DNA of 64,000 bases from Corallococcus coralloides. Lineage in GTDB: Bacteria > Myxococcota > Myxococcia > Myxococcales > Myxococcaceae. Position 1 is the first letter of the stretch. Each line of letters starts with the position of its first letter. A model generated the notes under the pieces. It was given only the letters and a program-made list of their open reading frames with translations. It was not told the origin of the DNA and did no database searches. The stretch lies in the NCBI RefSeq assembly GCF_004104415.1, contig NZ_CP034669.1. One strand, written 5' to 3'. The translations under genes were made by a program, and so were the position numbers. Of the stretch, positions 2,004-32,107 are shown in pieces.

Positions 2004-2219
2004 GGGCGGATTTCCTATCACCGGGCCCGGTTTTCGGGAGTGCGCCCACCGTGTCACGGGTACAGCCCGTGAAAACAGGAAACCGCTGGGGATCCACACC
2101 CCCGTTTCAATATTTCGACACCAGTACGTTTGACAGGGCGTGTCATGCCCCTGACAATTTTCAACACTCCGTCACTCGCGGACAGAACGCGAGTGCACGA
2201 AGCACACTGCGCCCCGCAC

Positions 2220-4145
2220 ATGGCCCTCGGTTCCGAGACGATTGGCAGGAAGCTCTTGTGGAGCATCGCGCTGCCCGGGTTGGTGGTGGCGCTCCTGGGC
2301 GTGGGGCACTTCTCACGCGAGGCCCGCCAGGCGGTGCGCGAAGGCACGCACCTGGAGGCGCTCGCGCTGGCGGAGGCCGTCGCGTCCACCTTCACGCAGC
2401 CGCAGGCGCCGGGCGCGGCTCCCCATGGCGCGGTGGCGGAGGTGCTGTCGTCGGACACGCGGCTGTTCCGCTCCGTGGAGGACCTGCGCGTCCTGACGCC
2501 GGAGGGGCGCATCCGCTGGAGCCGGCGGCCGGCCGAGCAGGGGCACACGCACCCGGAGGCCGCGCGGCTGTCCGCGACGGGGCCGGAGACGGCGCGCTCC
2601 AGCGACCACGGCACGGAGGTGGTGCGGCCCCTGGGCGGCCCGGAGTGCTCCGGCTGTCACACCGGCGAGGCCGCGCAGCGCATGGGCGTCCTGCAGGTGC
2701 GCATGGGCGAGCCCGCGCTGACGCGCCAGCTCCAGACGGTGTTCCAGGACGCGCTGGGCGCCATGGTGCTCTTCGTGGGCATCCTGGGGCTCGTCACCTG
2801 GCTGTCCCTGCGCTTCGTGCTCACCGCGCCGCTCAAGCGGCTGAGCGAGGCCATGGGCCGCGCGGCGGACGGCGACCTGCTGGTGCGCGCGGAGGCCCGG
2901 GGCACGGACGAGATTTCGCGGCTGGGCGCGGCCTTCAACCAGATGCTCGCGCGGCTCACCTCCATGAAGGTGGAGGAGATCGACACGCACCGCGACCTTC
3001 AGCTGGTGAAGGAGAAGCTGGCGCTGAAGGACGAGCTGGAGGAGCGCCTGACGGAGCTGTCGCTGCTGTTCGACGTGGCCCGCTCGCTCAACACCACGCT
3101 GGAGCTGGACGAGCTCCTGTCGCGCATCACCCGCATGGTGGTGGAGCGGCTGCACATCCCGGACTTCTCCATCATGCTCCTCAACGAGGAGGGCCTGCTG
3201 GAGGTGAAGCACGCGTGGCCGCGGGGCCGGGGCCTGGAGGGCCACACCTTCGCCATGGGCGAGGGCGCGTGCGGCCGGGCCGCCCAGGCGCGCAAGGCGG
3301 TGTACCTGCCGGACCTGACGGACAGCACCAGCGTCTTCGCGCGGCGCGGGCTGCGCGGCGGCTCGGAGCAGGGGTCGCTGCTGGCGGTGCCCATGGTGCA
3401 CGCGGACACGCTCCTGGGCGTCATCAACTTCCAGCGCCCGGAGACGGCGAGCATCTCCGCGGAAGAAATCGAGCTCTTCACCGCGGTGGCGGATCAGGCC
3501 GCGACGGCGGTGACGAACGCGCGCCTGCACGCGGAGACGGTGAAGCTCACGCTGACGGACGCGCTCACGGGCGTGCCCAACCGCCGCCACCTCTTCCAGC
3601 GGCTGGACCTGGAGCTGGCGCGGGCCCAGCGCTTCGGCGTGCCCATGGCGCTGCTGATGGTGGACGTGGACCACTTCAAGCGGCTCAACGACCTGGCCGG
3701 CCACCGCGCCGGGGACGAGACGCTGCGCCGGGTCTCCGACGTGCTCCGGACGCGCGCGCGCAAGGTGGACACGCTGGGGCGCTACGGCGGCGAGGAGTTC
3801 GTGCTGCTGCTGCCGCAGGTGTCCAAGGCCACGGCGGTGGAGGTGGCGGAGACGCTGCGCCGCGCGGTGGCGGACTCCGTCACGCTCAGCCGTCCGGGGC
3901 TGCCCGGGGGCCACGTCACGGTGTCCATCGGCGTCTCGCACTTCCCCACGGACGCGACGGCGCAGGACACGCTGGTGGACTGCGCGGACTCGGCGCTCTA
4001 TTGCAGCAAGCGGACGGGCCGCAACCGCGTGACGGCGTTCGAGCCCGGCATGGAGGTGCACCCCGGCCGCGAGCGCAGCATCAGCGCGCCGCCCGCGGAC
4101 GCGCCCTCCACCCCGCCCGCGCCCTCCGGCATCGCGAAGGCCTGA
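2220..4145 (+). CDS. Membrane sensor diguanylate cyclase (2 TM, small periplasmic domain with CXXCH, HAMP, coiled-coil, GAF, GGDEF)
   Basis: ORF 2130..4145(+); the likely start is the Met of MALGSETIGRKLLWSIALPGLVVALLGV (TM1). Periplasmic segment carries ECSGCH; TM2 is AMVLFVGILGLVTWLSL; HAMP follows; GGDEF core is RYGGEEFVLLLP with the RHLFQRLDLE I-site region. Confidence 0.8.
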   Translation: MALGSETIGRKLLWSIALPGLVVALLGVGHFSREARQAVREGTHLEALALAEAVASTFTQPQAPGAAPHGAVAEVLSSDTRLFRSVEDLRVLTPEGRIRWSRRPAEQGHTHPEAARLSATGPETARSSDHGTEVVRPLGGPECSGCHTGEAAQRMGVLQVRMGEPALTRQLQTVFQDALGAMVLFVGILGLVTWLSLRFVLTAPLKRLSEAMGRAADGDLLVRAEARGTDEISRLGAAFNQMLARLTSMKVEEIDTHRDLQLVKEKLALKDELEERLTELSLLFDVARSLNTTLELDELLSRITRMVVERLHIPDFSIMLLNEEGLLEVKHAWPRGRGLEGHTFAMGEGACGRAAQARKAVYLPDLTDSTSVFARRGLRGGSEQGSLLAVPMVHADTLLGVINFQRPETASISAEEIELFTAVADQAATAVTNARLHAETVKLTLTDALTGVPNRRHLFQRLDLELARAQRFGVPMALLMVDVDHFKRLNDLAGHRAGDETLRRVSDVLRTRARKVDTLGRYGGEEFVLLLPQVSKATAVEVAETLRRAVADSVTLSRPGLPGGHVTVSIGVSHFPTDATAQDTLVDCADSALYCSKRTGRNRVTAFEPGMEVHPGRERSISAPPADAPSTPPAPSGIAKA

Positions 4146-6382: not shown

Positions 6383-7972
6383 TCAACCGGGCCGGTAGAC
6401 GCGGTAGTCCAGCTCGGGGAACAGGTTGTCGCGGCCTTCGACGTGGGACAGCCACGGCTCGTCAACGGTTCCGGCGCGCACCTGGTCGTGCAGGCGCAGG
6501 AAGCGCTGCAGGTGCTCCTGCGTGCGGCGCACGGCGTAGTCCACCATGGTGCCGGTCTTCATGATGAAGGCCCAGTCGGAGGACTGCGCCAGCAGCAGCT
6601 CGCGCGCGGCCTGGTTCAGCGCCCGGCGCTTGAGGGACGGCGCGTCCGGGAAGTCCCGGGCCAGCTCCACCATCTGCCGCGCGGCGTGGTTCAGGTGCCG
6701 GTAGATCCAGTCGTTCGTCCCATCCAGCCACATGTTCGCGTAGCCGCCCGCGCCCCAGGAGGACATGGCCGGCGTGGCCACCTGGTTCTCCGGGTGCTCG
6801 CGCAGGTCGTCCAGCGGGCTGATGAGCGTGAAGCGGCTGGGGTTGCGCGCGGCCTGGCGGATGAGGGCGTCGATGAAGTGGGGGCCCTCGAACCACCAGT
6901 GGCCGAAGAGCTCCGCGTCATAGGGCGCGACGACCACGGGCTTGCGGCCGCCCATGCGCGACGCGAGGTATTCGAACTGGCGCTCGCGGTTGAAGAGGAA
7001 GTTGCCCGCGTGGACCCAGGCGCGCTCGCGGGCGGCGGCCGGGTCGTAGGGCTGCTTGTCGTTCGTCTTGCCGGTGATGCGGAAGTACTTGAAGCCGGTG
7101 TTCTTGCGCTCGCCGGTGGGCTGGATGAAGGGCCGGACGTAGTCCAGGTCCAGGTCCCAGCCGATGTCCCGGTAGAACTCGCGGTAGACGGGGTCGCCGG
7201 GGTAGCCGTGCTCGGTGCTCCAGACCTGCTGGCTGCTCTCCGGGTCGCGCGCGAAGGCCGCGACGCCCGGCTCGGTGAAGATGGGCGCGTAGGGGCCGTG
7301 CAGCGGGCGGGGCGTGGCGTCCGTGAGCGCGTGCGTGTCCGCGAAGAAGTAGCGGATGCGCTCGGCGGAGAGGATGCGCTCCAGGCCCGGGTAGTAGCCG
7401 CACTCGGCCAGCCAGATGCCGGCGGGGTCGCGGCCGAAGTTCTGGCGGTAGTGGTTCGCCGCCACCGTCACCTGCGCGCGCACGGCCTCCGGCGTCTGCT
7501 GCATGAGCGGCAGGAAGCCGTGGGTCGCGTTGCAGGTGAGGATGTCCAGGTGGCCGGAGTCCTGGAGCCTGCGGAACGCCGCCACCAGGTCGCGCCGGTA
7601 GTGGTTGTGGTACGCGAGCCGCAGCGATTCGAAGTGGTCGCGGTGGAAGACGGCCAGCGGGTGGAAGGTGGCGTCATCCCGGGTGCGGTGCACCTCGCGG
7701 GCGCCCAGCTCGCAGAGCGAGTCCAGCCGCCGGGCGTAGCGCTCCCGCAGCAGGTCGTCGTTGAGCATGGACACGAGCGTGGGCGAGAGCGTCATCGTCA
7801 CCCGGAAGGGGACGCGGTCCTCGACCAGCCTGTCGAACACGCGCAAGAGCGGCAGGTACGTCTCGGAGATGGCCTCGTAGAGCCAGTCCTCTTCGAGGAA
7901 GTCTTCGTACTCGGGGTGGCGGACGAACGGCAGGTGCGCGTGAAGGACCAGCGCGAGGGAGCCCAGGCTCAT
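6383..7972 (-). CDS. Glycoside hydrolase family 57 alpha-1,4-glucan branching enzyme
   Basis: ORF 6383..8338(-); the true start is the internal MSLGSLALVLHAHLPFVRHPEYEDF at 7972, the canonical GH57 N-terminus. The ORF's upstream extension overlaps the neighbouring gene. Conserved GH57 blocks run throughout (WLAECGY, DAELFGHWWFEG). Confidence 0.8.
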   Translation of the reverse strand: MSLGSLALVLHAHLPFVRHPEYEDFLEEDWLYEAISETYLPLLRVFDRLVEDRVPFRVTMTLSPTLVSMLNDDLLRERYARRLDSLCELGAREVHRTRDDATFHPLAVFHRDHFESLRLAYHNHYRRDLVAAFRRLQDSGHLDILTCNATHGFLPLMQQTPEAVRAQVTVAANHYRQNFGRDPAGIWLAECGYYPGLERILSAERIRYFFADTHALTDATPRPLHGPYAPIFTEPGVAAFARDPESSQQVWSTEHGYPGDPVYREFYRDIGWDLDLDYVRPFIQPTGERKNTGFKYFRITGKTNDKQPYDPAAARERAWVHAGNFLFNRERQFEYLASRMGGRKPVVVAPYDAELFGHWWFEGPHFIDALIRQAARNPSRFTLISPLDDLREHPENQVATPAMSSWGAGGYANMWLDGTNDWIYRHLNHAARQMVELARDFPDAPSLKRRALNQAARELLLAQSSDWAFIMKTGTMVDYAVRRTQEHLQRFLRLHDQVRAGTVDEPWLSHVEGRDNLFPELDYRVYRPG

Positions 7973-7998
7973 AGGTCGGTCGGAGAGGCCGTGCGGGT

Positions 7999-10401
7999 TC
8001 ACTTCCGTCCACGGCGCGACGGCCGGGACTTGGAGGACTTGGAGGACTTGGAGCCCGGGGGCTTGGGCTCCGGTGGGTTCTGGGCCGCCTTCGGAGGCGC
8101 GGCGGGCGGGGACTTCACGGCGTCCGTCTTGGGAGCCGCGGCGCTCGAAGCCGCCGGGGCCTCCACCTTCGGAGCCTCGACTTGCACGGGTGAGGGGCTC
8201 ACGGGCACGGAGGCCAGTGCGGCCCGTCGCGCGGCCTCGCGAGCCTTGTCGAGGGCACGCTGTTCGGACGCGGAGGGACCGCGCGCCACGCTCAAGGCCC
8301 ACGGGTCCCTGGGAGGCTCGGGCTCCGTGGGCCGCCACGAATCCGTGGAGGCAGCATCCTGGGTCGATGGGCCGGACAGGACCGAAGCCTCGGCTCCCAT
8401 CGGCGTCGAGGTCTCGGCGGGACGCGATGACGGGAGGTCCCGCGCTTCGAGTACGTCCCCTCGTGAACGCGGTGACTCCGGGGACCAGGCATCCGAGCCC
8501 CCGGCCGTACGCACTGCGCCGGGCTGATCCGAAGTGCCCGTGGCGTGATCCGCGGAGAGGTAGCGCTGATCCGAAGCGCCCGCCGCCCGTGGCACCGTCA
8601 GGTATTGCTGATCCGAAGCGCCCGTGGCCCGGTCCATCGACAGGTAGCGCTGATCCGAAGCTCCCGGCGCCCGTGGCACGGTCAGGTACTGCTGGTCCGA
8701 AGCTCCCGCCGCGCGAGGCACGCTCAGATACCGCTGATCCGAAGCTCCCGCGGCGCGAGGCACGCTCAGGTAGCGCTGGTCCGAAGTCCCCGGCGCTCGC
8801 TGCATGTCCTGGGTCCCCTGCCCTCCCGCCACGTACCGCTGGTCCGAAGCTCCCGGTGCACGCGGCACCTCCAGATAGCGGTACTCCGAAACGCCTCCCG
8901 GCAGCAGCGCCTGCCCGTACCGCTGATCCGAAGCACCCGGCGCGCGCGGCACCTCCAGATACGGAGACGCCACGTCATGGCGCTGGTCCGAAGCGCCCGG
9001 AGCCAGCTCCACGGCCAGATAGCGCTGATCCGAGGCCCCGGGAGCACGAGACGGGGCCAGCACCGCGCCCTCACCGAGCGTCGCCTCCCCCACGCGCGCA
9101 TACTGCTGGTCCGACGCACCCGGCGCTCGCGGCGCGCTCTCCAGATACGCCTCTTCCACGTAGCGCTGGTCCGAAGCCCCGGGGACGCGCGGCGCATCGA
9201 CATAGGCCTCGGTGCGCTCCCGGTGGACCTCCGGCACGTCCCCCCCCCCGGCGCTCCCGGGCAGTTGCACCCGGCGCCAGGTGACGTATTCGCGCTCCTC
9301 CACCCGAGGAACCCGCGCGGACGCCGCCGAGGGGACCGCGTCGCGCAGCCGGTCCACCACCGGAGGAGGCGGCATGCGCAGGAACCGGATGGACGTGTCC
9401 GCCGACGGCCCCGCGGGCGGCAGCGTGGCCCGATTGGACGAATGTCCGATGCGGCGTGACCGGCCATCCGAACCGACGAAGTGCGCCTCCACCCGGTACG
9501 TGCGCCCGGGCGTCATGCCCTGCAGATAGAAGCTGCGCGACTCCAGCGCGAAGTCCACCTCGCGCGACACGCCCTCGCCATCGAACACCTTCAGCACCGC
9601 GCGCGGCGCCGGCAGCGCGTCGAGCGCCCGGCTCCGGCTCGCCTCACTGAAGTCCCAGAAGACGAAGAGCGTGTGCGGATCCCTGGCGAGCAGCACCATC
9701 GCGTCGTCCTGGTAGTCCAGGGGCAGCATGGCCAGGTGCTCGTTCCGCTCGGGCGACGCGTCCGCCGGAGGAAGGCGCGGCGCCTGCTCCTCCAGGAGGT
9801 GATGGCGGCGCGCCTCCTTCTCCCCCGCCATCTTCGTCACGAAGAACCCCTCCACCAGGGGCTCGGCGGCATGCGGCGGCTCGCTCGCGGGCGCGGGCTT
9901 CGCGGCGGCGGGCGCGTCCTCCCTGGGAGCGCTCGACGGGCGCGGCGTGGGCGCCTCGGGAGCCAGGGACAGCGTGTCCCCTTCGTCGTCCAGGTCGCGG
10001 CGCGTCTTCGCGCGGGCGGGGAACGTCACCACGCGAGCGGGCCGCGTTCTGGGGCCACCGCTGGGCTCCGTGATGGGCTCCTCGGAAAGTTCTCGTGCCT
10101 GCGGCGCGGCGGCGCTCTCGGGCGGAGGCAGGGGTACGGACCCGGACGTCGAGCCCTTGTCGGAGCGGGAATCCGCCGGGCCGGAATCCAGGACCCGCTC
10201 CTCGCCGCCCACGGCACCGGAGCCGCGCCGGGACGTCGCCAGGCCGGCCATGCGCGCGAGCCGCCCCAGGGCGGGAATGCGCTCGGCCAGCGAGGTGACC
10301 CACTCCCGCCCGCGGGACACGCCAGCTCCCTCCCGGAGATATTTCCGGGCCAGCTGCCGCAGGTAGCTCACGGTGACGCCCTTCCGCTCATCCATGGACA
10401 C
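7999..10401 (-). CDS. Repeat-rich DUF4912-like protein with approximately 15 tandem PRAPGASDQRYL units and a Lys/Pro/Ala-rich basic tail
   Basis: 800-aa ORF. The beta-sandwich-like region (LLARDPHTLFVFWDF...YRVEAHF) fits the DUF4912 family that co-occurs with GH57. The central tandem repeat is (V/A)PRAPGASDQ(R/Q)YL. C-terminus is PKAAQNPPEPKPPGSKSSKSSKSRPSRRGRK. It sits 26 nt upstream of the GH57 gene on the same strand. Confidence 0.6.
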   Translation of the reverse strand: MSMDERKGVTVSYLRQLARKYLREGAGVSRGREWVTSLAERIPALGRLARMAGLATSRRGSGAVGGEERVLDSGPADSRSDKGSTSGSVPLPPPESAAAPQARELSEEPITEPSGGPRTRPARVVTFPARAKTRRDLDDEGDTLSLAPEAPTPRPSSAPREDAPAAAKPAPASEPPHAAEPLVEGFFVTKMAGEKEARRHHLLEEQAPRLPPADASPERNEHLAMLPLDYQDDAMVLLARDPHTLFVFWDFSEASRSRALDALPAPRAVLKVFDGEGVSREVDFALESRSFYLQGMTPGRTYRVEAHFVGSDGRSRRIGHSSNRATLPPAGPSADTSIRFLRMPPPPVVDRLRDAVPSAASARVPRVEEREYVTWRRVQLPGSAGGGDVPEVHRERTEAYVDAPRVPGASDQRYVEEAYLESAPRAPGASDQQYARVGEATLGEGAVLAPSRAPGASDQRYLAVELAPGASDQRHDVASPYLEVPRAPGASDQRYGQALLPGGVSEYRYLEVPRAPGASDQRYVAGGQGTQDMQRAPGTSDQRYLSVPRAAGASDQRYLSVPRAAGASDQQYLTVPRAPGASDQRYLSMDRATGASDQQYLTVPRAAGASDQRYLSADHATGTSDQPGAVRTAGGSDAWSPESPRSRGDVLEARDLPSSRPAETSTPMGAEASVLSGPSTQDAASTDSWRPTEPEPPRDPWALSVARGPSASEQRALDKAREAARRAALASVPVSPSPVQVEAPKVEAPAASSAAAPKTDAVKSPPAAPPKAAQNPPEPKPPGSKSSKSSKSRPSRRGRK
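8540..9220. repeat. In-frame tandem repeat of about 39-42 bp, roughly 15 copies, encoding PRAPGASDQRYL units
   Basis: Visible in the nucleotide sequence as a recurring gcgctgatccgaag(c/t)(g/t)cccg(c/g/t)(c/g)gc... unit, and in the protein as repeated APGASDQRY. Confidence 0.7.
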
Positions 10402-10530
10402 CTCGCCTCGTTATGACGCGGCATACAGGGGGTCAACGCATCCGTCACGGGATGTGTTGTTCCGCCGACCCCCTTCTTCATCCGTCACGCCCGATGACAC
10501 CTCACCCCTGTCCAAGTATCCTGCGACCGC

Positions 10531-13305
10531 TTGAGCGACCTGCCCAGACTTCTCCTGTGCAGCTTTGACGTCATCCCCGGCCCGTCTGGCTCCTCACGCC
10601 GACTGACCGAGTATCTGAAGGCGTTGCCTGATCGCTTCTCCGTGGTGGTGCTGTCGGCGAAGACGCCCGACCACTCCCATATCGAGAAGTACCAGGGCGC
10701 CCGGCTGCTCCGCGTCCCGGTAGGCTCCGGGGACCTGGCGTCGCGCATCCAGTCCTTTGAACGGGCCGTGCGCCGGCAGCTCGAAAGCGAGGACTACGCC
10801 CTCGCCCACTTCACGGACCCCTTCGGCGGGTACGCGCTGTGCGAGCTGAAGGCGGACTACGGCTACCGCCTCATCTATGAGGCGCAGACGTTCCCGTCCC
10901 AGGAGCTGCGCTACACCCATCCCCAGACGGACGGCGACCGCCGCTTCCTGTCGAAGATCCGCCGCCAGGAGCTGTTCTGCCTGATGAACGCGGACCTCGT
11001 CGTCACCGGCTCGCAGACGACGCGCGCGTTCATCCAGGGGCTGGGCGCCGCGGAGGACCAGCTGCGCACGATTCGCGCGCCCGTGGACCTGAAGCCGTAC
11101 GACCCGGAGGTGCTCGGCGCCCCGGACGGTTCGCCGCTTAGAATGATGTACCTGGGCAGCCACGTGGGCTGGCAGGGCCTGCCCACCCTCCTGCGCGCCA
11201 CCGCGCTCGCGGCCCAGCAGGTGGACGTGCGCCTGACGTTGGTGGGCGCGCACCATCCGGACTGGAAGCCCCACCTGGAGGACCTGGTCAACGACCTGGG
11301 CATCAAGGAGAAGGTCGACTTCCAGCCGCCCGTCGCGCACGACGACCTGGTAAAGGTGCTGGCGCTGGCGGACGTGGGCGTGCTGCCGCTGGACGACTCG
11401 GAGCGCAACCGGCTCCAGGGCGGACCGCTGGCCAAGGTCTCCGAGTACCTGGCCGCCGGCCGGCCGGTCATCGCCGCGGACCTGCCCGTCACCCGCGAGC
11501 TGATTCCGAAGGACGCGGCCCTCTTCTTCCCCCCGGGCGACAGCCGCGCCCTCTCCGAGCGCATCCTGGACCTGGCGCGCGACGTGCCCCGCCGCGTGGC
11601 GCTGGGCAAGGCCGGGCGCGCGTTCGCGGAGAAGGTGCTGGACGCGGGCCTCATCCGGGGCCAGCTGCTGGACCTCTACGACTCGCTGCTGGAGAAGCGC
11701 GGCCACGTCCCGGTCGAAGCCGCCAGCGAGCCGCCCGACGTCACGATGACGGGCACGCCCACGAACAGGCTCGCGAGCCTGGGCATGCCGGAGGCGTCCC
11801 AGCCCGCGCCGGCGCCCAGGCCGCCCGCGAAGCCCGCCGTCCAGGCCGGGTCCGGCGAAGCCGCCCCGCCCCCCGCGAAGGACGGCCCGGAGGACGCGCC
11901 CGTGGTGATGGGCATGGCCCTGGACGACGGGATGGACACCCGGCTCGTCAAGACCGAGCCGGACATGCGGCCGGACGAAGTGCCCATGGTCATGGGCCTG
12001 CCGCTGCGCGAGTCCGCCAGCGCCGCGCCGGCCCCCGCGAGCAGGGAAGCCACGCCGCCTCCGGAGCCCGAGGCCGCGCCCCAGAAGACCGACGACACCG
12101 CGAAGACGACGCTCCCCTCCTCCCCCGCGAAGGACCCCGAGCCGGAGCCGCTGGGGGGCCGTGGCTCGGAGCCGGCTCCACCCACGGAGATGGTGACGAG
12201 TCCCCTGGTGAAGGCCCTCGGCTTGAAGGAGCTCAGCGGGGACGACGCCGGGGCTTCGGATTCGGCGGCCCGCGCCTCCGGGGATGGCTCCTCCGGAGCG
12301 ACGGCGGTGGTGCGCCGGCCGGCGGAAGTGGCGGAAGACGACACGAGCACGCCGGCCCCCACGCCCGTCGTGCGCAGGCCCGCCTCCGAGGATGAGGCCC
12401 CCGCCCCCACGCCCGTGGTGCGCCGGCCCCTGCCGGAAGACGAACCGCCCGCGGCCACGCCCATCGTGCGCCGCCCCACCTCCCTCTCCGAGGACGAGGA
12501 GCGGGCCCCCACGCCCGTCGTGCGCCGGGCCGGGGTCATGCGTGAGGAGGAAGAGGCCCCCGCGCCCACCCCCATCGTGCCCATGCGCTCGTTGCTGGCC
12601 GGGGCGCGAAGCACGGGCGCCGGCCGTGCGCAGCGGTCGCAGGACTCCGCCCCCTCTGAACCCCCGCGTCTCTTCCCCACTCCCACTCCCATGGCCGACG
12701 CGGAAAAACCGCCCATCCGTGGCGGCCTCGCCGCGGATCCAGGCCGGCCCGCCTCCCGCCCCCCGGTGCTCTCGGAGTCCGACAAGCCGCCCATCCGCGG
12801 TGGCTCCGTCTCCGACGCGGACCGCCCGCCGCAGCTGCCGCCCCGCGCCGCCGCGCCGCCGCCCGTTCCGCGCCAGGGACCGCCGCCCCGGCTGAGCCCC
12901 ACGCCGCCCGTGCTCAAGCCCTCCGCGTCACCCGACGACGAGCCGGAGGAGATCGCCGCCGACGAGGCCCTGTCCCTGGACGACGACGCCGGCAACACGC
13001 CCTCCAACGCCACCGCGGCGCTGGACGAGGCGGAGGAGATCGCCGCCGACGAGGTCCACGACGCGGACTCGCTCGACGTGGAGGCCGCGGACGCCGTGGA
13101 TGAAGGGCCTCCGCCCGCGCCGCCCGACTCCACCCTCAACCCGTGGTTCGCCCAGTTGGCGCACGGGTACTGTCCCCCCGAGGGCGCCCGCTTCGCCCGG
13201 CCCACCCCGCCCACCAACTTCCCCGGGCGGGAGCCGGAAGCAGGCGCGTCCCCCGGGTCGGTCCCCCCTGTCGGGCAGGGAGCGGTTCGCGGCAAGAACT
13301 CGTGA
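10531..13305 (+). CDS. GT4-family glycosyltransferase (approximately 400-aa catalytic domain) with an approximately 520-aa Pro/Ala/Glu-rich disordered C-terminal extension
   Basis: The N-terminal domain has a GT-B/GT4 layout (FDVIPGPSGSS..., a LYEAQTFPSQEL-type block, and a C-terminal Rossmann EYLAAGRPVIAADLPVTRE). The tail carries APTPVVRRP x5, KPPIRGG x2 and EEIAADE x2 repeats. The only in-frame start is TTG at 10531. It is divergent from the DUF4912 gene. Confidence 0.75.
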   Translation: MSDLPRLLLCSFDVIPGPSGSSRRLTEYLKALPDRFSVVVLSAKTPDHSHIEKYQGARLLRVPVGSGDLASRIQSFERAVRRQLESEDYALAHFTDPFGGYALCELKADYGYRLIYEAQTFPSQELRYTHPQTDGDRRFLSKIRRQELFCLMNADLVVTGSQTTRAFIQGLGAAEDQLRTIRAPVDLKPYDPEVLGAPDGSPLRMMYLGSHVGWQGLPTLLRATALAAQQVDVRLTLVGAHHPDWKPHLEDLVNDLGIKEKVDFQPPVAHDDLVKVLALADVGVLPLDDSERNRLQGGPLAKVSEYLAAGRPVIAADLPVTRELIPKDAALFFPPGDSRALSERILDLARDVPRRVALGKAGRAFAEKVLDAGLIRGQLLDLYDSLLEKRGHVPVEAASEPPDVTMTGTPTNRLASLGMPEASQPAPAPRPPAKPAVQAGSGEAAPPPAKDGPEDAPVVMGMALDDGMDTRLVKTEPDMRPDEVPMVMGLPLRESASAAPAPASREATPPPEPEAAPQKTDDTAKTTLPSSPAKDPEPEPLGGRGSEPAPPTEMVTSPLVKALGLKELSGDDAGASDSAARASGDGSSGATAVVRRPAEVAEDDTSTPAPTPVVRRPASEDEAPAPTPVVRRPLPEDEPPAATPIVRRPTSLSEDEERAPTPVVRRAGVMREEEEAPAPTPIVPMRSLLAGARSTGAGRAQRSQDSAPSEPPRLFPTPTPMADAEKPPIRGGLAADPGRPASRPPVLSESDKPPIRGGSVSDADRPPQLPPRAAAPPPVPRQGPPPRLSPTPPVLKPSASPDDEPEEIAADEALSLDDDAGNTPSNATAALDEAEEIAADEVHDADSLDVEAADAVDEGPPPAPPDSTLNPWFAQLAHGYCPPEGARFARPTPPTNFPGREPEAGASPGSVPPVGQGAVRGKNS

Positions 13306-13404
13306 GGCAGCCGACCGAGCACCGCTCGGAAACTTCCCAAGCCTTGCGCCCGCCCGATAGGATGTGGCGGTTTTCACTGCACTTTTTGCTGGGTGAAGGG
13401 CTTC

Positions 13405-16400
13405 ATGGAGCGTCGCGTCCTCATCGTCGAAAGCCAGAACGACTTCGCACTCAGCATGGCCTCCGTGCTCAAGAGCGCGGGCTACAACACGGCCATGGCC
13501 ACCACTGCGTCAGACGCGCAGCGGGAATTGGAGAAGCGCCGACCAGACCTCGTCGTCGTGCGCGCGGAGCTGCCGGACCAGTCCGGCTTCGCCCTCTGTG
13601 GGCAGATCAAGAAGGGCAAGTGGGGCCAGAACCTCAAGGTCCTCCTGCTCTCCTCCGACTCCGGCGTGGAGGGTCTGAACAAACACCGTGAGACGCCGGC
13701 CGCCGCGGACGGCTACCTCGTCATCCCGTTCGAGATGGGCGAGCTGGCCTCCATGAGCACGGGCATCGTGCCGCCCGGCTCCGACGAATCCGACGCGGAC
13801 CTGGACGCCGCGCTCTCCGGTGCGCCGCGTGAAGCCCCGCCGCCCATGCCCGGCGTGCGCACGGGCGCCCCGCCCAAGCTGCCCAAGCGCGAGCGCCGCA
13901 GCGCGATGACGGACGAGGACAAGTCCTTCATGGACCGGGCCTTCTCATCCATCGCGGACCGCAAGGCGGAGCTGCTGGCGGAGTCGCGTCAGCTGAAGCG
14001 CCCGCCCCCGCGCCGCGAGCTGATGGGCACGCCCGAGGGCAAGATTCAAATCCTCCGGGACGAGCTGAAGACGCGCGAAGCCCAGCTCGCGCGCCTGTCG
14101 GAGATCTGGAGCGTCCGCGAGCGCGAGCTGCTCTCCGTCGAGGACCGCCTCCACGAGAAGGACGTGGAGCTGCAGGGCCTGAAGATGCAGGTCGACGACC
14201 TGCTCAGGCGCTTCAACGACGCGCAGCAGTCCATCGTCCAGAAGGAGCGCGAGCACGGCGCCACCGTGGACGACCTGCTCCTCCAGAAGTTCTCCTCGGA
14301 GAAGGACCTCATCGAGGTCGTCGCCTCCAAGGAGAAGGACATCAACGTCCTGCGCAAGGAGGTCAACCTCCGCGACGAGGAGCTGGCCCGGCGCGGCGCG
14401 GATCTGGAGTCCTGGCGCAACGAGTTCGACAAGCTGGAGAAGCACCTCGGCGTCGTCACGCTGGAGTTCGAGGTCAAGGAGCAGAAGCTCCAGGACACCG
14501 TCCGCGCCAACGAGGCGGACATCCTCCAGCTGCGCGAGCGCGGCGATCAGTTCGAGTCCGAGCTGGCCCGCACCGTCAGCGAGCGCGACCAGCGCTATGC
14601 CGAGCTGGACGGCGAGCTCCAGGCCCTCCAGGAGCGGCTGACGCAGACGGAGCAGGAGCGCGACGCCACCGTGCGCGGCCTGGAGGCCCGGGCCACGACG
14701 GCGGAGGAGCACGCCAGCCGCTCGGACGCGGAGATTGAGCGCCTCAACGCCGAGCGCGCCGCCCTGGAGCAGCGCCTCACGCAGCAGGTGGCGGACCTGG
14801 AGTCCGACATCGCGCGCGTCACCGGCGAGCGCGACCAACTCCGGCTGGACAAGGACGCCCTGGAGGCGGACCTCACGCAGCGCGTGGAGGAGCGGGACGC
14901 GAAGCTCTCCGCGCTCGACCGCGAGCTGCAGGAGGCCATCGCCCGCAACGAGAACAGCGAGGCGGAGCTCAACGCCACCATCCAGCAGCACCGCGAGCGC
15001 ATCGGTGAGCTGGAAGGCGAAGTCGAGGCCGTCAAGACGCACCTGGAGGACCGCGAGAACGAGCTGACCGCGGAGCTCCAGGCGCTGCAGCAGGCCAAGG
15101 ACGCGCTGGAGCAGGACCTCACCAGCCAGCTGGAGGACCTGCGCGCGGCGAAGGACGCCCTGGAGGCGGACCTCAACGGCCAGATTCAGGCGCTCACCGA
15201 GCAGCTGGACGCGTCCCAGCGCCAGGGCGAACAGCTCTCCGCGCGCGTGGCCTCGCTCGAGGACACCGTCGCCCAGCGCGACGGCACCATCGAGGGCCTG
15301 CAGACCGACGTCTCCGACCGCGACGCCCGCATCGCCGAGCTGACCGGCAACCTGGAGGCCACGAGCCAGCAGCTCTCCGAGACGCAGAACACGCTCTCCA
15401 GCACGGAGGCCACCCTCGCGGAGACGCGCGGCGAGCTGGAGGCGACGAGCCAGCAGCTCTCCGAGACGCAGGGCACGCTCTCCAACACGGAGGCCACCCT
15501 CGCGGAGACGCGCGGCGAGCTGGAGGCCACCAGCCAGCAGCTCTCCGAGACGCAGACGCGCCTGGCCCAGACGGAGGAGACGCTCTCCACCACGCGCGGC
15601 GAGCTGGAGGCCACCAGCCAGACGCTGGCCACCACCGAGGCGACCCTCGCGGACACGCAGGGCACGCTGGCGCGCACGGAAGGAACGCTCGCCGACACGC
15701 AGGCGACCCTGTCCAGCACCGAAGGCACGCTGGCGGAGACGCGCGGCGAGCTGGAGGCCACCAGCCAGACCCTGGCGGACACCCAGTCCAGGCTCGCGCG
15801 GACGGAGGAGACGCTCTCCACCACGCGCGGCGAGCTGGAGGCCACCAGCCAGACGCTGGCGGACACGCAGGCCACGCTCTCCAGCACGGAGGGCACGCTC
15901 GCGGAGACCCGTGGCGAGCTGGAGGCCACCAGCCAGACGCTGACGGACACGCAGGCGAAGCTCGCGCAGACGGAAGGGACGCTCGCGTCCACCCAGGGCG
16001 AGCTGGAGGCCACCAGCCAGACGCTGGCCACCACCGAGTCCACGCTCGCGCAGACGCAGGACACGCTGGCGCGCACGGAAGGAACGCTCGCCGACACGCA
16101 GGCGACGCTGTCCAGCACGGAGGGCACGCTCGCGGAGACGCGCGGTGAGCTGGAGGCTACCAGCCAGACGCTGACGCAGACCCAGGAGACCCTGGAGTCG
16201 ACGCGCGCCGACCTGGCGAAGGTCACCTCGCACCGCGACGAGCTGGACGCGGAGCTCAACGAGACGCGCGACATCCTCCAGGAGACCAACGGCCTCCTCG
16301 CCCGCACCACCGAGGAGCGCGACGCGCGCATCGCGGATCTGGCGGCGCTCAACGCGGCGAAGGACGCGCTGGAGCAGGACCTCACCGGCCAGATTGGCCA

Positions 16401-18000
16401 GCTGCGCGCGGACCTGTCGGAGACGCAGGGCCTCTACGACGCGGAGCGCACCGCCCACGCGGCGCTCGCGGAGGAGACCACCGCGCGCATCCACGCCCTC
16501 ACCGGCGAGCGCGACAACCTGACCGCGGAGCTGAACGCCACCTCGCAGCAGCTGGCCGACACGCAGGGCCAGCTCGCCAGCACCCAGGACGCGCTGGCCC
16601 GCGAGGAGCAGGCCCACGCGCAGTCCCGCCAGGCCGCCGCCAGCGCCCAGGCGGAGCTCACGCGCCAGCTCACCGAGGCCCAGGCCAACGGCGAGGACCT
16701 GGCCGAACAGCTCATCGTCACCAAGCACGAGCTGGGCACGCGCGTGTCGGAAGTCACGCAGCTGTCCTCCACGCTCGCGCAGACGGAGGACGCGCGGCAC
16801 CACCTGGAGGACCGCCTCCAGACGCTCACCCACGAGTCGCAGCGCCGTGAGGAGCTCCTCCAGAACGAGGTCGACACCAAGGGCAAGGAGCTGTCGGACA
16901 CGCTCCGCAAGCTCACGCACGTGACGCAGGAGAAGATGCGTCAGGCGGAGGTGCTCAACCGCGAGGTCTCCACCCGCACGGAGCAGGTGAAGCAGCTGGA
17001 AGGCCAGCTGGAGCACCAGGCCTCCGAGGCGAAGAAGCAGGCGGACGCGCTCCACCAGCAGCTCGCCAACGTCTCCGGCGAGCTGGACGGGGCGCGCAAG
17101 GCCATCGCGGACCGCGACGGACAGCTGCAGCAGGCCGCGAACCAGCAGAAGAAGCTCACCAGCGAGCGCGACGGACTGGCCGGGCAGCTCCAGCAGGCCC
17201 AGGCCCAGGCGCAACAGCAGGCCCAGCAGGCCCAGGCCGCCGCCGCCGAGGCGAAGAAGCAGGCGGACGACCTGGCCGCGAAGCTCGCGAAGGCGGACCA
17301 GCGCATCGCGCAGCTCTCCCAGGAGGCCCAGAAGTTCGCCGCCGACACGGAGGCGAAGCTCAAGGACGCCCAGGCCCAGCTGCAGACCCGCACCAAGAAG
17401 GCCCAGGACCTGGAGCTGGCGCTGGAGAACGCCCAGAGCACCCGCGCCCGCGCGGAGAAGGACCTCAACGCGCGCGTCGCCGCGGCGGAGACCAAGGCCA
17501 ACGAGGCGGCCTCGAAGCTCGCCACGGCGCAGAAGGACCGCAAGGACCTGGAGGCCCGTCAGGCCAAGGAGCTGGAGGACCTCAACGCCAAGCAGAAGGC
17601 GGAGCTCGAGCGCCGCGAAGCCATCAAGGCGCAGGAGGTCGCCCGCCTCCAGACGTCCGTCCAGGAGAAGAGCAAGGCGCTCAAGGTCGCCGAGCTGGAG
17701 CTGGCCCGCTACAAGTCCAAGGCCCCGGCCGCCGCCCCCGCCGCGAAGGCCAGCGCCAAGGCCACCGAGGACGAGCACCTGGCCGCCACCGTCCAGGCGA
17801 ACCCGGTCATCCCGGCCGCCGCCAAGCCCCCCGCCAAGGCCACCGCCAGGCCGGCCGCGAAGAAGGCCGCTGCCGCGCCCACCCCCGTCCCCGTGGACGA
17901 GGAGGCCCCGGAGCGCACCATGGTGATGCAGCTGCCCACCGCCCCCGAAGCCGGTGGTGAGGACGACTGGACGGCGCTCGTCGACGAGCTCGACAAGTAG
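13405..18000 (+). CDS. aglZ: AglZ/FrzS-family gliding-motility protein: N-terminal pseudo-receiver domain plus a coiled-coil of about 1350 aa
   Basis: The N-terminus aligns to the FrzS receiver (RRPDLVVVRAELPDQSGFALCGQIKKGKW against FrzS RDRPDLVVLAVDLSAGQNGYLICGKLKKD); an Arg sits where the phospho-acceptor Asp is expected. The rest is heptad-rich coiled-coil with 28-aa repeats. Start is ATG at 13405, with an alternative GTG at 13393. Confidence 0.7.
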   Translation: MERRVLIVESQNDFALSMASVLKSAGYNTAMATTASDAQRELEKRRPDLVVVRAELPDQSGFALCGQIKKGKWGQNLKVLLLSSDSGVEGLNKHRETPAAADGYLVIPFEMGELASMSTGIVPPGSDESDADLDAALSGAPREAPPPMPGVRTGAPPKLPKRERRSAMTDEDKSFMDRAFSSIADRKAELLAESRQLKRPPPRRELMGTPEGKIQILRDELKTREAQLARLSEIWSVRERELLSVEDRLHEKDVELQGLKMQVDDLLRRFNDAQQSIVQKEREHGATVDDLLLQKFSSEKDLIEVVASKEKDINVLRKEVNLRDEELARRGADLESWRNEFDKLEKHLGVVTLEFEVKEQKLQDTVRANEADILQLRERGDQFESELARTVSERDQRYAELDGELQALQERLTQTEQERDATVRGLEARATTAEEHASRSDAEIERLNAERAALEQRLTQQVADLESDIARVTGERDQLRLDKDALEADLTQRVEERDAKLSALDRELQEAIARNENSEAELNATIQQHRERIGELEGEVEAVKTHLEDRENELTAELQALQQAKDALEQDLTSQLEDLRAAKDALEADLNGQIQALTEQLDASQRQGEQLSARVASLEDTVAQRDGTIEGLQTDVSDRDARIAELTGNLEATSQQLSETQNTLSSTEATLAETRGELEATSQQLSETQGTLSNTEATLAETRGELEATSQQLSETQTRLAQTEETLSTTRGELEATSQTLATTEATLADTQGTLARTEGTLADTQATLSSTEGTLAETRGELEATSQTLADTQSRLARTEETLSTTRGELEATSQTLADTQATLSSTEGTLAETRGELEATSQTLTDTQAKLAQTEGTLASTQGELEATSQTLATTESTLAQTQDTLARTEGTLADTQATLSSTEGTLAETRGELEATSQTLTQTQETLESTRADLAKVTSHRDELDAELNETRDILQETNGLLARTTEERDARIADLAALNAAKDALEQDLTGQIGQLRADLSETQGLYDAERTAHAALAEETTARIHALTGERDNLTAELNATSQQLADTQGQLASTQDALAREEQAHAQSRQAAASAQAELTRQLTEAQANGEDLAEQLIVTKHELGTRVSEVTQLSSTLAQTEDARHHLEDRLQTLTHESQRREELLQNEVDTKGKELSDTLRKLTHVTQEKMRQAEVLNREVSTRTEQVKQLEGQLEHQASEAKKQADALHQQLANVSGELDGARKAIADRDGQLQQAANQQKKLTSERDGLAGQLQQAQAQAQQQAQQAQAAAAEAKKQADDLAAKLAKADQRIAQLSQEAQKFAADTEAKLKDAQAQLQTRTKKAQDLELALENAQSTRARAEKDLNARVAAAETKANEAASKLATAQKDRKDLEARQAKELEDLNAKQKAELERREAIKAQEVARLQTSVQEKSKALKVAELELARYKSKAPAAAPAAKASAKATEDEHLAATVQANPVIPAAAKPPAKATARPAAKKAAAAPTPVPVDEEAPERTMVMQLPTAPEAGGEDDWTALVDELDK
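15340..16215. repeat. In-frame tandem repeats of about 84 bp (28 aa) inside the aglZ-like coiled-coil
   Basis: Protein repeat ETRGELEATSQ(Q/T)L(S/A)(E/D)TQ.TL(S/A).TE(A/G)TLA iterated at least 10 times. These are coding repeats, not a CRISPR array. Confidence 0.6.
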
Positions 18001-19450: not shown

Positions 19451-19574
19451 CGCAGAGCGCCGCGGATAAAGGACACCGGACAGGCGATCGTTGGCGTTTC
19501 ACGCTTTGCGCTCCCGGTGTGCCTGGGTACAAGTTCCTCAGCTGTCCCACCCCTAGCCCGAGAGGAACACCCCG

Positions 19575-32061: not shown

Positions 32062-32062
32062 C

Positions 32063-32091: not shown

Positions 32092-32107
32092 CCTGCCCTG
32101 CTGAAGC

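What the first reader, a model, noticed from the sequence alone, without database searches (positions are those of the whole stretch)
6383..13305. Alpha-glucan cluster: GH57 branching enzyme, repeat-rich DUF4912-like protein, and a divergent GT4 glycosyltransferase with a giant disordered tail
A GH57 branching enzyme lies 26 nt downstream of an 800-aa repeat protein; a GT4 glycosyltransferase is transcribed divergently. The GH57 plus GT4 pairing recalls the mycobacterial Rv3031/Rv3032 pair used for methylglucose lipopolysaccharide and alpha-glucan synthesis, rather than the classical GlgB/GlgA glycogen route. Both non-catalytic partners carry long low-complexity regions, which is unusual for polysaccharide enzymes and suggests scaffolding or condensate-like behaviour around a glucan granule. 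A DegP protease and an SGNH hydrolase continue on the same strand downstream.
Basis: partly seen in the sequence, partly recalled or inferred. Interest (0 to 1): 0.6.

Follow-up and report, generated by a model that had tools for sequence, protein, structure and literature searches.

The report
Glucan-branching enzyme with obligate partner gene
A myxobacterial gene cluster for making or remodelling a starch-like storage sugar; its enzyme belongs to a poorly understood class that is encoded, in many bacterial phyla, directly after the same uncharacterised small protein, which is therefore probably the enzyme's missing partner.

Summary
In this Corallococcus-like window, an 800-aa DUF4912 protein (7999-10401, -) sits 26 nt upstream of a 529-aa GH57+BE_C enzyme (6383-7972, -). 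A 924-aa GT4 (10531-13305, +) is transcribed divergently.

- **DUF4912-GH57 pair:** this is the robust result. A DUF4912 gene lies directly upstream of this GH57 type in 63 of 72 evaluable genome loci from about 13 phylum-level lineages. Starting from DUF4912, 71 of 71 evaluable metagenome loci have the GH57 directly downstream. One MAG encodes them as a single fused protein.
- **The GH57:** it is the AmyC-type, loop-less class, which the literature reports as weakly active or inactive alone.
- **DUF4912:** it models as an FN3-like beta-sandwich and is probably the enzyme's non-catalytic partner.
- **The GT4:** it is not GlgM/GlgA-like (the only available proxy for Rv3032). It is a Myxococcota-centred subfamily closest to SPS/MshA, with a disordered tether ending in a conserved 34-aa peptide. 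It keeps the divergent position in 12 of 14 contexts, always with an AglZ-like gene downstream where readable.
- **DegP and SGNH:** these are unrelated neighbours.

This is a new variant of a known kind.

The parts
6383..7972 (-). GH57 'branching enzyme', AmyC-type (loop-less), 529 aa. Catalytic Glu190 (WLAECGYY) and Asp352 (APYDAELF) are present.
   Evidence: Pfam GH57+BE_C. PDB 2b5d (T. maritima AmyC) at E 3.5e-169, aligned end to end without loop insertions; TK1436, TT1467 and PH GBE at only 1e-75 to 1e-81, with insertions in the targets. Catalytic residues invariant. NCBIfam GBE equivalog cutoffs not reached.
7973..7998 (-). 26-nt spacer between the DUF4912 stop and the GH57 start (operon junction)
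   Evidence: Sequence. The median spacer is 27 nt in 62 genome loci and 37 nt in 71 metagenome loci.
7999..10401 (-). DUF4912 protein, 800 aa (GTG at 10401 or ATG at 10395)
   Evidence: Pfam PF16258. Reading frame conserved in Corallococcus and Myxococcus orthologues.
10267..10380 (-). Degenerate Rho_N/SAP-like N-terminal motif (TVSYLRQLARKYL...)
   Evidence: It aligns with TV..LRELARKHLG.GYSKLKTK.EL in other myxobacterial DUF4912 proteins. Pfam Rho_N is detected in L007, L019 and L064 homologues, but is not significant in the window protein itself.
9376..9735 (-). DUF4912 domain proper (aa 223-342), an FN3-like seven-strand beta-sandwich
8512..9192 (-). Repeat region: 13 x G[AT]SDQ[RQP], 11 of them followed by Y; the last seven copies have a 14-aa period
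   Evidence: The motif G[AGST]S[DE]x0-4[WYF] occurs 12 times here against at most 1 in 200 shuffles. It is also expanded in Myxococcus, Archangium and, independently, a Methylomirabilota MAG.
10402..10530 (.). 129-bp divergent intergenic region, with a sigma-70-like -35/-10 at 10494-10522 (+) ahead of the GT4
   Evidence: a consensus match only.
10531..11700 (+). GT4 catalytic GT-B domain (aa 1-390). The EX7E loop carries an insertion (E291-R292-N..Q296-G297..K302..E305).
   Evidence: Pfam. 74-99% identity among myxobacterial orthologues. Subfamily profile against PDB: SPS 6kih 8.6e-40, MshA 5e-31, PimA 1.6e-26, GlgM 3e-23 over the C-domain only.
11701..13131 (+). Disordered proline-rich tether (aa 391-867). 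Conserved islands at aa 406-420 and 451-495; APTPVVRRP repeats.
   Evidence: Composition and repeats, conservation profile, pLDDT below 50. Tail length varies from about 50 to 1200 aa among relatives.
13132..13233 (+). Conserved C-terminal peptide LNPWFAQLAHGYCPPEGARFARPTPPTNFPGRE (aa 868-901)
   Evidence: Identity 0.98 (aa 871-885) and 0.80 (aa 886-900) across 24 orthologues. Found in most tail-bearing relatives down to about 40% catalytic identity, whatever the tail length. The only secondary structure predicted in the tail is a helix at aa 871-877.
13393..18000 (+). AglZ-like protein (receiver domain plus long coiled coil, 1535 aa); fourth member of the conserved core
   Evidence: Pfam Response_reg plus coiled-coil hits. 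Orthologues lie directly downstream of the GT4 in L001, L004, L005, L066, L084, L086 and L087. AglZ = MXAN_2991 (PMC4546325).
6299..6325 (-). Terminator-like hairpins between the GH57 stop and the DegP start
   Evidence: consensus scan; the count is not above chance for the region, but the position is apt.

Best explanation
The locus is a cytoplasmic alpha-glucan (glycogen-like) synthesis or remodelling module. Its core is a two-gene operon: DUF4912 followed by a loop-less, AmyC-type GH57 'branching enzyme'.

SHOWN: the pair is near-obligate in both directions across about 13 phylum-level lineages. It is separated by a median of about 30 nt and is fused into one polypeptide in one MAG. The GH57 has an intact catalytic Glu/Asp dyad but lacks the flexible loop and the beta5-beta6 element that define highly active GH57 branching enzymes. 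The DUF4912 domain models as an FN3-like beta-sandwich. None of the three proteins has a signal peptide or a membrane segment.

INFERRED: DUF4912 is the non-catalytic partner or subunit of the GH57 enzyme. It would bind the enzyme and/or the glucan and supply the acceptor-side or targeting function that the loop-less enzymes lack. In Corallococcus and Myxococcus its flanks have expanded into disordered regions carrying 12-13 copies of a G-A-S-D-Q-R-Y short motif, which would give multivalent docking.

The divergent GT4 is a Myxococcota-centred, SPS/MshA-like retaining glycosyltransferase. It is joined by a variable disordered tether to a conserved 34-aa C-terminal peptide. Because it keeps its place next to DUF4912-GH57 in 12 of 14 contexts while the flanks change, it most likely works with the pair, either priming or extending the alpha-1,4 chain or making a glucosylated primer. 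The peptide would anchor it to a partner. That step is inferred from synteny only.

DegP and SGNH are not part of the system.
For: Pfam and PDB assignments.

DUF4912-GH57 pairing:
- DUF4912 lies directly upstream, on the same strand, in 65 of 82 loci. Eight of the 17 exceptions have under 530 nt of upstream sequence, so the figure is 65 of 74 (63 of 72 without the window and L001).
- The nine true exceptions were checked by Pfam.
- The converse scan from DUF4912 gave 71 of 71 evaluable loci.
- Spacer medians are 27 and 37 nt.
- L061 encodes a 1049-aa DUF4912+GH57+BE_C fusion.
- The DUF4912 fold is FN3-like.

GH57 class:
- The loop and beta5-beta6 are absent, as seen in the alignments to 5wu7 and 2b5d.
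- In the literature, AmyC shows low branching with up to 30% hydrolysis (PMC6616209).
- 92% of 2497 GH57 'GBEs' are loop-less, have low or no activity on amylose when assayed alone, and have an unknown in vivo substrate (PMC9291813).

Glucan context elsewhere:
- 15 of 39 loci with at least 5 kb on both sides carry a GlgM/GlgA-like GT4, an NTP_transferase-PGM fusion or a further GH57.
- In Omnitrophota the gene order is GT4 -> DUF4912 -> GH57.

GT4:
- Synteny is kept at 41-92% identity with different flanks.
- The C-terminal peptide is conserved.
- No hydrophobic segments in any of the three proteins.
Against: No physical interaction between DUF4912 and GH57 has been shown.
- The fusion is a single MAG ORF and could be an assembly artefact.
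- The FN3-like fold is generic and matched no specific carbohydrate-binding module.
- Nine loci have the GH57 without an adjacent DUF4912 (a copy elsewhere in those genomes cannot be excluded).
- I could not check whether T. maritima amyC or M. tuberculosis Rv3031 have a DUF4912 neighbour.

The GT4 link is weaker.
- This GT4 type is absent from DUF4912-GH57 loci outside Myxococcia, including an Anaeromyxobacteraceae locus.
- Two related GT4s (44-47% identity) lack the pair.
- Its closest solved relatives act on small phosphorylated acceptors, not glucans.
- Outgroup relatives sit in non-glucan modules.
- It is just as tightly linked to aglZ.
- No other glucan genes were found among the 41 window ORFs scanned.
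Confidence: 0.55

Rival explanations
1. One reading: an Rv3031/Rv3032-type alternative glucan or MGLP route. The GT4 would be the alpha-1,4-glucosyltransferase, and the low-complexity regions would form a scaffold or condensate around a granule.
For: Rv3031 is also a loop-less GH57 (PMC9291813). GH57 together with a GT4 recurs in other phyla. Both tails are disordered.
Against: The window GT4 is not of the GlgM/GlgA-like type that accompanies GH57 elsewhere: 22% identity, and no GlgM or GlgA hit at E below 0.01 with the single sequence. The subfamily profile prefers SPS and MshA. There are no MGLP-type methyl- or acyl-transferases in the scanned part of the window. The Rv3032 sequence itself could not be compared. 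Condensate behaviour is untested, and the tails contain conserved motifs rather than pure low complexity.
Confidence: 0.15
2. The GT4 is functionally unrelated to the glucan pair and its position is inherited gene order. It may work with the downstream AglZ-like protein (gliding motility or polarity), make a small glucoside as SPS or MshA do, or glycosylate a protein.
For: GT4 -> AglZ-like adjacency is as conserved as GT4 <-> DUF4912. The best solved relatives use small phosphorylated acceptors. L083 and L088 have the GT4 without GH57, DUF4912 or AglZ. Outgroup relatives are in two-GT4 modules without glucan genes. A terminator-like site after the GT4 suggests a monocistronic unit.
Against: The four-gene core survives while the flanks are replaced (DegP; TPR; SLT/T6SS; abhydrolase/Sua5/XerC). 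A different GT4 lineage occupies the position just upstream of DUF4912 in Omnitrophota, which argues for a general GT4+DUF4912+GH57 triad. Firmicutes GH57-linked GT4s score as high against the subfamily profile as the best PDB hit, 111-140 bits.
Confidence: 0.3
3. DUF4912-GH57 is mainly catabolic: an intracellular alpha-amylase-like activity that trims glycogen or maltodextrin. DUF4912 would be a regulator or targeting factor, and the pair would not be a biosynthetic branching system.
For: AmyC was first described as an intracellular alpha-amylase, and up to 30% of its activity is hydrolytic (PMC6616209). Loop-less enzymes branch poorly (PMC9291813). Some loci carry extra GH57 hydrolase-like genes (DUF3536 type) and L082 has a GDE-type debranching gene nearby.
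Against: Co-location with a GT4 and an NDP-sugar pyrophosphorylase-PGM fusion in 11 and 8 of 39 loci points to synthesis. AmyC does introduce 8.5% alpha-1,6 bonds.
Confidence: 0.25

Closest known systems
[quoted passage not shown]
   Same: About 50% identity over the full length, E 3.5e-169, with no indels in the catalytic-loop region. Same catalytic Glu/Asp and the same BE_C domain.
   Different: AmyC has been studied alone, and no partner protein is described. Whether amyC has a DUF4912 neighbour could not be checked here. The window enzyme is mesophilic and myxobacterial, and its lid-2 motif reads FIMKTGT rather than IMTTRT.
Thermococcus TK1436 / Thermus TT1467 / Pyrococcus PH GH57 branching enzymes ('true' GH57 GBEs)
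   Same: Same family, fold and catalytic dyad.
   Different: E only 1e-75 to 1e-81. The window enzyme lacks their flexible Tyr-tipped loop and beta5-beta6 strands (PMC9291813). NCBIfam equivalog scores are 315-320 bits against cutoffs of 920-1000.
Mycobacterium tuberculosis Rv3031 (GH57) - Rv3032 (GT4) MGLP locus
   Same: A loop-less GH57 next to a GT4 (PMC9291813 for Rv3031; Rv3032 from my own knowledge).
   Different: The GT4 here belongs to another subfamily (SPS/MshA-like, with an insertion in the EX7E loop and a 530-aa tail). There are no MGLP tailoring genes. A DUF4912 partner is present here and, to my knowledge, is not described for Rv3031.
Eukaryotic glycogenin and its recruitment of glycogen synthase (functional analogy only; from my own knowledge)
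   Same: The layout: a glycosyltransferase domain, a variable-length disordered linker and a conserved C-terminal docking peptide.
   Different: Glycogenin is GT8 (GT-A fold) and self-glucosylates on Tyr. This protein is GT4 (GT-B fold). No self-glucosylation and no partner for the peptide have been shown.
Cyanobacterial 'Rho-like' Rho_N + DUF4912 proteins
   Same: Same DUF4912 domain and a Rho_N-type N-terminus. The function is stated to be unknown (PMC13613805).
   Different: That paper discusses them only as possible Rho relatives. It does not mention the GH57 linkage found here.

Membership tests
GH57 (CAZy) / Pfam PF03065 + PF09210 | Domain models above the gathering score | tested here: met
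   108.1 bits (cutoff 21.2) and 141.5 bits (cutoff 25).
GH57 (CAZy) | Catalytic nucleophile Glu (CSR III) and acid/base Asp (CSR IV) | tested here: met
   Glu190 in WLAECGYY and Asp352 in APYDAELFGHWW align with AmyC E185 and D349. Both are invariant in alignment A1.
'True' GH57 glycogen branching enzyme (TK1436/TT1467 type, as defined in PMC9291813) | Flexible catalytic loop of 17-22 residues, usually tipped by Tyr | tested here: not met
   The alignment to 5wu7 shows the loop residues as insertions in the target only. The alignment to loop-less AmyC is gap-free there.
'True' GH57 glycogen branching enzyme | Beta5-beta6 strand element | tested here: not met
   There is an insertion of about 16 residues in 5wu7 after ECAYRP, relative to the window protein.
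'True' GH57 glycogen branching enzyme | NCBIfam equivalog score cutoff | tested here: not met
   319.8 against 1000 and 315 against 920.
'True' GH57 glycogen branching enzyme | Alpha-1,6 branching activity on amylose or glycogen | not testable with these tools
   This needs an enzyme assay, with and without DUF4912.
AmyC-type loop-less GH57 | Full-length similarity to AmyC with a short catalytic loop | tested here: met
   E 3.5e-169, residues 126-648 of the long ORF against 3-523 of 2b5d; 50% identity.
DUF4912 (PF16258) | Domain model above the gathering score | tested here: met
   70.4 bits against 29.4. Hallmark residues P, Y, DP and W are conserved.
DUF4912-GH57 gene pair (defined here) | DUF4912 immediately upstream of a loop-less GH57 on the same strand | tested here: met
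   26-nt spacer. 63 of 72 genome loci and 71 of 71 metagenome loci share the arrangement.
GT4 (CAZy), retaining GT-B | Glyco_transf_4 N-domain and Glycos_transf_1 C-domain | tested here: met
GT4 (CAZy) | Canonical EX7E motif | tested here: inconclusive
   Both Glu residues appear to be present (E291, E305), but they are 13 residues apart because of an insertion. R292, G297 and K302 are nearly invariant in the subfamily.
GlgM / Rv3032 / GT4-type glucan synthase | Closest relatives are GlgM/GlgA-like alpha-1,4-glucosyltransferases | tested here: not met
   The single sequence gives no GlgM or GlgA hit at E below 0.01. The subfamily profile ranks SPS 8.6e-40, then MshA, then PimA, then GlgM 3e-23 over the C-domain only, then P. 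abyssi GlgA 4.5e-11. Identity to the GH57-linked GlgM-like GT4 is 22%. The Rv3032 sequence itself was not available.
Rv3031-Rv3032 MGLP locus | Methyltransferase and acyltransferase tailoring genes in the cluster | tested here: not met
   None among the 41 window ORFs scanned. The only methyltransferase is an FtsJ-type gene at 38225-38863.
Classical GlgC-GlgA-GlgB glycogen operon | GT5 synthase, GH13 branching enzyme and ADP-glucose pyrophosphorylase nearby | tested here: not met
   No such Pfam families in the scanned window ORFs. The rest of the genome was not available.
Glycogenin-like tethered primer (analogy) | Catalytic domain, variable disordered linker and conserved C-terminal docking peptide | tested here: met
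Glycogenin-like tethered primer (analogy) | GT8 fold and self-glucosylation | tested here: not met
   The fold is GT4/GT-B. Self-glucosylation is not testable here.
AglZ (M. xanthus MXAN_2991) | N-terminal receiver domain plus a coiled coil of more than 1000 aa | tested here: met
   Response_reg at aa 9-120 plus crescentin- and SMC-type coiled-coil hits. A direct comparison with the M. xanthus AglZ sequence was not made.

The most novel reading that the evidence does not exclude
DUF4912 and the tail-bearing GT4 together form a bacterial counterpart of the glycogenin system. The GT4 would be tethered through its conserved C-terminal peptide to the DUF4912-GH57 complex (or to AglZ). It would prime or extend glucan chains, possibly on Ser or Tyr of the repeated G-A-S-D-Q-R-Y motifs of the DUF4912 protein. 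Tether length and motif valency would set granule size or cellular position. More generally, DUF4912 would be the missing activating subunit that explains why 92% of GH57 'branching enzymes' look nearly dead in vitro.
Probability: 0.12. Interest if true: 0.85.

Novelty: new variant of a known kind. Interest (0 to 1): 0.6.

Why it matters
GH57 'branching enzymes' without the catalytic loop make up about 92% of the family. Assayed alone they are weak or inactive, and their in vivo role is openly described as unknown (PMC9291813).

A DUF4912 gene precedes them almost universally and is once fused to them. This gives a concrete, cheap experiment: co-express the pair. That experiment could reassign the function of thousands of annotated genes and give DUF4912 a role. 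The only discussion of DUF4912 found in the searchable literature treats it as a Rho-like protein of unknown function.

For myxobacteria, the conserved core GH57-DUF4912 <-> GT4-AglZ links glucan metabolism genes to a motility and polarity gene. It also presents a glycosyltransferase with a glycogenin-like tether architecture.

Tried and rejected
1. I tested whether the GASDQRY repeats are duplicated copies of the conserved C-terminal edge of the DUF4912 domain (PR.G.SD..DEEWM). An HMM built from non-myxobacterial sequences did not score the window tail above shuffles. It was above all 200 shuffles for summed score only in Archangium L005. I do not claim this.
2. The first homologue search with the DUF4912 domain returned only 20 fragments. 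I replaced it with a profile search.
3. The M. xanthus GT4 orthologue could not be located on a contig.
4. Searches for MXAN_2988-2993 and for aglZ plus glycosyltransferase found nothing relevant.
5. The search for related loci with the wide DUF4912 alignment failed for lack of conserved stretches. A narrower alignment worked, but it samples mainly the Firmicutes/Omnitrophota-like branch.
6. AlphaFold2 of the full GT4 gave a low-confidence N-domain (shallow, redundant alignment) and no confident docking of the C-terminal peptide. I therefore made no fold search of it.
7. The afdb50 library was unavailable.
8. DegP and SGNH as cluster members: rejected. DegP is adjacent only in Myxococcaceae/Archangiaceae loci, has a signal peptide and is separated by a terminator-like site.
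9. A secreted glucan or 'slime' role: not favoured, because none of the three proteins has a signal or membrane segment.
10. DUF4912 as a specific carbohydrate-binding module: not supported. The fold searches return generic FN3 domains only.
Full report
**Source and gene models.** The window has about 72% G+C. Its GT4 is 92% identical to a Corallococcus exiguus protein, so it comes from Corallococcus or a close relative. The genes in the finding are as follows.
- GH57: 6383..7972 (-), 529 aa.
- DUF4912 protein: 7999..10401 (-), 800 aa.
- GT4: 10531..13305 (+), TTG start, 924 aa.

Pfam confirms Glyco_hydro_57 + BE_C, DUF4912, and Glyco_transf_4 + Glycos_transf_1. It also confirms DegP (Trypsin_2 + 2 PDZ) and a GDSL/SGNH hydrolase downstream.

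**The GH57 enzyme.** Its best solved relative by far is T. maritima AmyC (2B5D, E 3.5e-169, about 50% identity, aligned end to end). The well-characterised branching enzymes TK1436, TT1467 and the P. horikoshii enzyme score only 1e-75 to 1e-81. Their alignments show two insertions in the targets that are absent from the window protein. The catalytic Glu190 and Asp352 are conserved. NCBIfam GBE equivalog cutoffs are not reached.

The literature places this in context.
- AmyC is a branching enzyme with a short catalytic loop and up to 30% hydrolysis (PMC6616209).
- 92% of 2497 GH57 'GBE' sequences, including M. tuberculosis Rv3031, lack the flexible loop and the beta5-beta6 strands.
- These loop-less enzymes show low or no activity on amylose when assayed alone, and their in vivo substrate is stated to be unknown (PMC9291813).

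The window enzyme belongs to this loop-less majority.

**The DUF4912-GH57 pair.** I built a three-sequence GH57 alignment and fetched 80 genome loci encoding relatives of 52-94% identity from many phyla.
- An iterated DUF4912 profile finds a DUF4912 ORF directly upstream, on the same strand, in 65 of 82 loci (counting the window and Archangium L001).
- Eight of the 17 exceptions have under 530 nt of upstream sequence. The rate is therefore 65 of 74, or 63 of 72 independent loci: 88%.
- In the nine real exceptions the upstream genes are unrelated (NosD-like, amidohydrolase, redoxin, exonuclease, LexA and others).
- The converse test started from DUF4912 in metagenome contigs. All 71 loci with enough downstream sequence have this GH57 type directly downstream.
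- The spacer has a median of 27 nt in genomes and 37 nt in metagenomes.
- In one Deltaproteobacteria MAG (L061) the two are a single 1049-aa ORF with Pfam DUF4912 + GH57 + BE_C.
- Typical DUF4912 proteins are about 200-240 aa. Some carry an N-terminal Rho_N motif or a second C-terminal domain.

The only substantive mention of DUF4912 found in 8 million papers calls it a Rho-like protein of unknown function in cyanobacteria. The GH57 papers I read do not mention a partner gene.

The window protein adds several elements to the domain.
- A degenerate Rho_N-like N-terminus.
- About 180 aa of A/P/R/E-rich linker.
- 13 copies of G[AT]SDQ[RQP], 11 of them followed by Y.
- A basic KSS/RRGRK C-terminus.

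The motif G[AGST]S[DE]x0-4[WYF] occurs 12-13 times in Corallococcus and Myxococcus and 4-5 times in Archangium. It also occurs 8 times, independently, in a Methylomirabilota MAG (L036). Shuffles give at most 1-2. The repeats are therefore a recurrent, selected short motif rather than noise. Their role is unknown.

**Genomic context in other phyla.** Among 39 loci with at least 5 kb on both sides, 15 carry further glucan genes.
- A 416-aa GT4 occurs in 11 of them. Its best solved relatives are GlgM (6.5e-29), SPS and P. abyssi glycogen synthase.
- An 802-aa NTP_transferase-phosphoglucomutase fusion occurs in 8.
- Extra GH57 genes also occur.

In Omnitrophota the order is GT4 -> DUF4912 -> GH57. 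This supports an alpha-glucan role for the pair.

**The GT4.** It is only 22% identical to the GH57-linked GlgM/GlgA-like GT4. The single sequence hits SPS (1e-10), PimB' and MshA, but not GlgM or GlgA.

An exhaustive search finds 232 cluster representatives at E <= 1e-30, forming a continuum from 83% to 28% identity. Of five representatives at 44-61% identity looked up, the three that carry a source name are Myxococcaceae, Myxococcales and Deltaproteobacteria MAGs. A profile of this subfamily ranks the solved structures as follows:

| Solved structure | E-value |
|---|---|
| SPS (6KIH) | 8.6e-40 |
| MshA | 5e-31 |
| PimA | 1.6e-26 |
| GlgM (C-domain only) | 3e-23 |
| P. abyssi GlgA | 4.5e-11 |

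On the same scale the Firmicutes GH57-linked GT4s score 111-140 bits, as high as SPS. A distant common origin is therefore not excluded. The EX7E loop carries a subfamily-specific insertion (E291-R-N..Q-G..K302..E305).

The tail is disordered but not featureless. It has conserved islands at aa 406-420 and 451-495. Above all, a peptide NPWFAQLAHGYCPPEG.F.RHTPPT.FPGRD at aa 868-901 is nearly invariant. That peptide is present in most tail-bearing relatives down to about 40% catalytic identity, whatever the tail length (447 to 1463 aa). The layout of catalytic domain, variable tether and docking peptide recalls glycogenin. That is an analogy from my own knowledge, not a homology.

**Is the GT4 linked to the pair?** Contexts of the subfamily are summarised below.

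| Loci | GT4 identity to window | Arrangement |
|---|---|---|
| Window, L001-L006, L066 | 92% to about 70% | Divergent next to DUF4912-GH57 |
| L086, L087, L082, L084 | 56%, 53%, 50%, 41% | Divergent next to DUF4912-GH57 |
| L083, L088 | 44-47% | Neither DUF4912-GH57 nor AglZ |
| Four tail-less outgroup relatives | 31-36% | Unrelated module: a ~290-aa protein plus two convergent GT4s |

In L086 and L087 the DUF4912 is a minimal 156-166-aa protein. The flanking genes differ among the positive loci: DegP/SGNH; TPR; SLT plus T6SS; abhydrolase/Sua5/XerC/TrpRS. The core is always GH57 <- DUF4912 <-> GT4 -> AglZ-like protein, wherever the contig allows it to be read. The GT4 is absent from DUF4912-GH57 loci of Anaeromyxobacteraceae, Bradymonadia and all other phyla.

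The association is therefore old within Myxococcia and survives rearrangement, which favours a functional link. It cannot be separated from the equally conserved link to aglZ (AglZ = MXAN_2991; PMC4546325).

**What is not part of it.** DegP has a signal peptide, whereas GH57, DUF4912 and GT4 have no hydrophobic segment. Terminator-like hairpins lie between GH57 and DegP, and after the GT4. DegP adjacency is confined to Myxococcaceae/Archangiaceae loci. No other glucan-metabolism family was found among the 41 window ORFs scanned.

**Verdict.** The solid result is that DUF4912 is the near-obligate gene partner of loop-less GH57 enzymes. This makes the open question of what those enzymes do directly testable. 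The GT4 is a new, tethered, SPS/MshA-like subfamily whose role with the pair is plausible but unproven. The Rv3031/Rv3032 analogy holds for the GH57 only.

Noticed in passing
window 13393-18000 (+): A 1535-aa receiver plus coiled-coil protein, AglZ-like, lies 88 nt downstream of the GT4. The GT4 -> AglZ-like adjacency is kept in Archangium, Myxococcus and deep Myxococcales MAGs, even where all other flanks differ.
   Followed up: partly
L061:8429-11575 (+) (Deltaproteobacteria MAG VBLD01000085.1): A single 1049-aa ORF with Pfam DUF4912 (aa 349-466), GH57 and BE_C: a natural fusion of the two neighbouring genes. It could also be an assembly artefact.
   Followed up: partly
L036:7954-9369 (+) (Methylomirabilota MAG): The DUF4912 protein of an unrelated phylum has 8 'GASE.W'-type repeats in its tail, the same motif class as the Corallococcus GASDQRY repeats.
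   Followed up: partly
L008, L009, L011, L016, L020, L023, L025, L028, L031, L063 and other loci: C-terminal ~70 aa of the DUF4912 proteins: Many non-myxobacterial DUF4912 proteins carry a second conserved C-terminal domain (ELIVYGATEPDA...LRPDGTFS.RFALPDG...). Pfam gave no significant match. L019 has a weak Glucodextran_B hit.
   Followed up: no
L020:11597-14002 (+) and 11 other loci: An 802-aa fusion of a sugar-1-phosphate nucleotidyltransferase (with a hexapeptide-repeat region) and a phosphoglucomutase lies next to DUF4912-GH57, mainly in Firmicutes.
   Followed up: partly
L085, L169, L170 and JGI 3300047160 contig: Tail-less relatives of the GT4 (31-36% identity) sit in a recurrent small module: a ~290-aa protein without a Pfam hit, divergent upstream, and a second GT4 converging so that the 3' ends overlap. 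In two of the four a radical SAM/SPASM gene is next to it.
   Followed up: no
window 7999-8055 (-) and 13285-13305 (+): Both the DUF4912 protein (...SRPSRRGRK) and the GT4 (...AVRGKNS) end in a short basic RG[RK] motif that is conserved in their orthologues. The DUF4912 end is encoded by a perfect 9-nt x3 repeat (8026-8053).
   Followed up: no
window 7999-10401 (-): GC3 of the DUF4912 ORF is 0.84, against 0.93-0.97 for neighbouring genes. Repeat number differs between close Corallococcus relatives (9 to 11 copies by the strict G[AT]S[DE][QE][RQ][YFW] pattern, which counts 11 in the window). This suggests fast repeat turnover.
   Followed up: no
L082:1-1346 (-): In a Myxococcales MAG, a second, short GT4 (358 aa) and a GDE_N_bis (debranching-enzyme type) gene lie about 8 kb from the GT4/DUF4912/GH57 core. 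That GT4 scores only 18 bits against the tail-type subfamily profile.
   Followed up: partly
window 1248-4142, 18500-25332, 30958-38170: Other genes in the window: Cu-oxidase_4 and a HAMP-GAF-GGDEF protein (both also near the core in L084), an AAA ATPase, a Fic protein, a putative EndoU nuclease protein and a 2020-aa bacterial alpha-2-macroglobulin.
   Followed up: no
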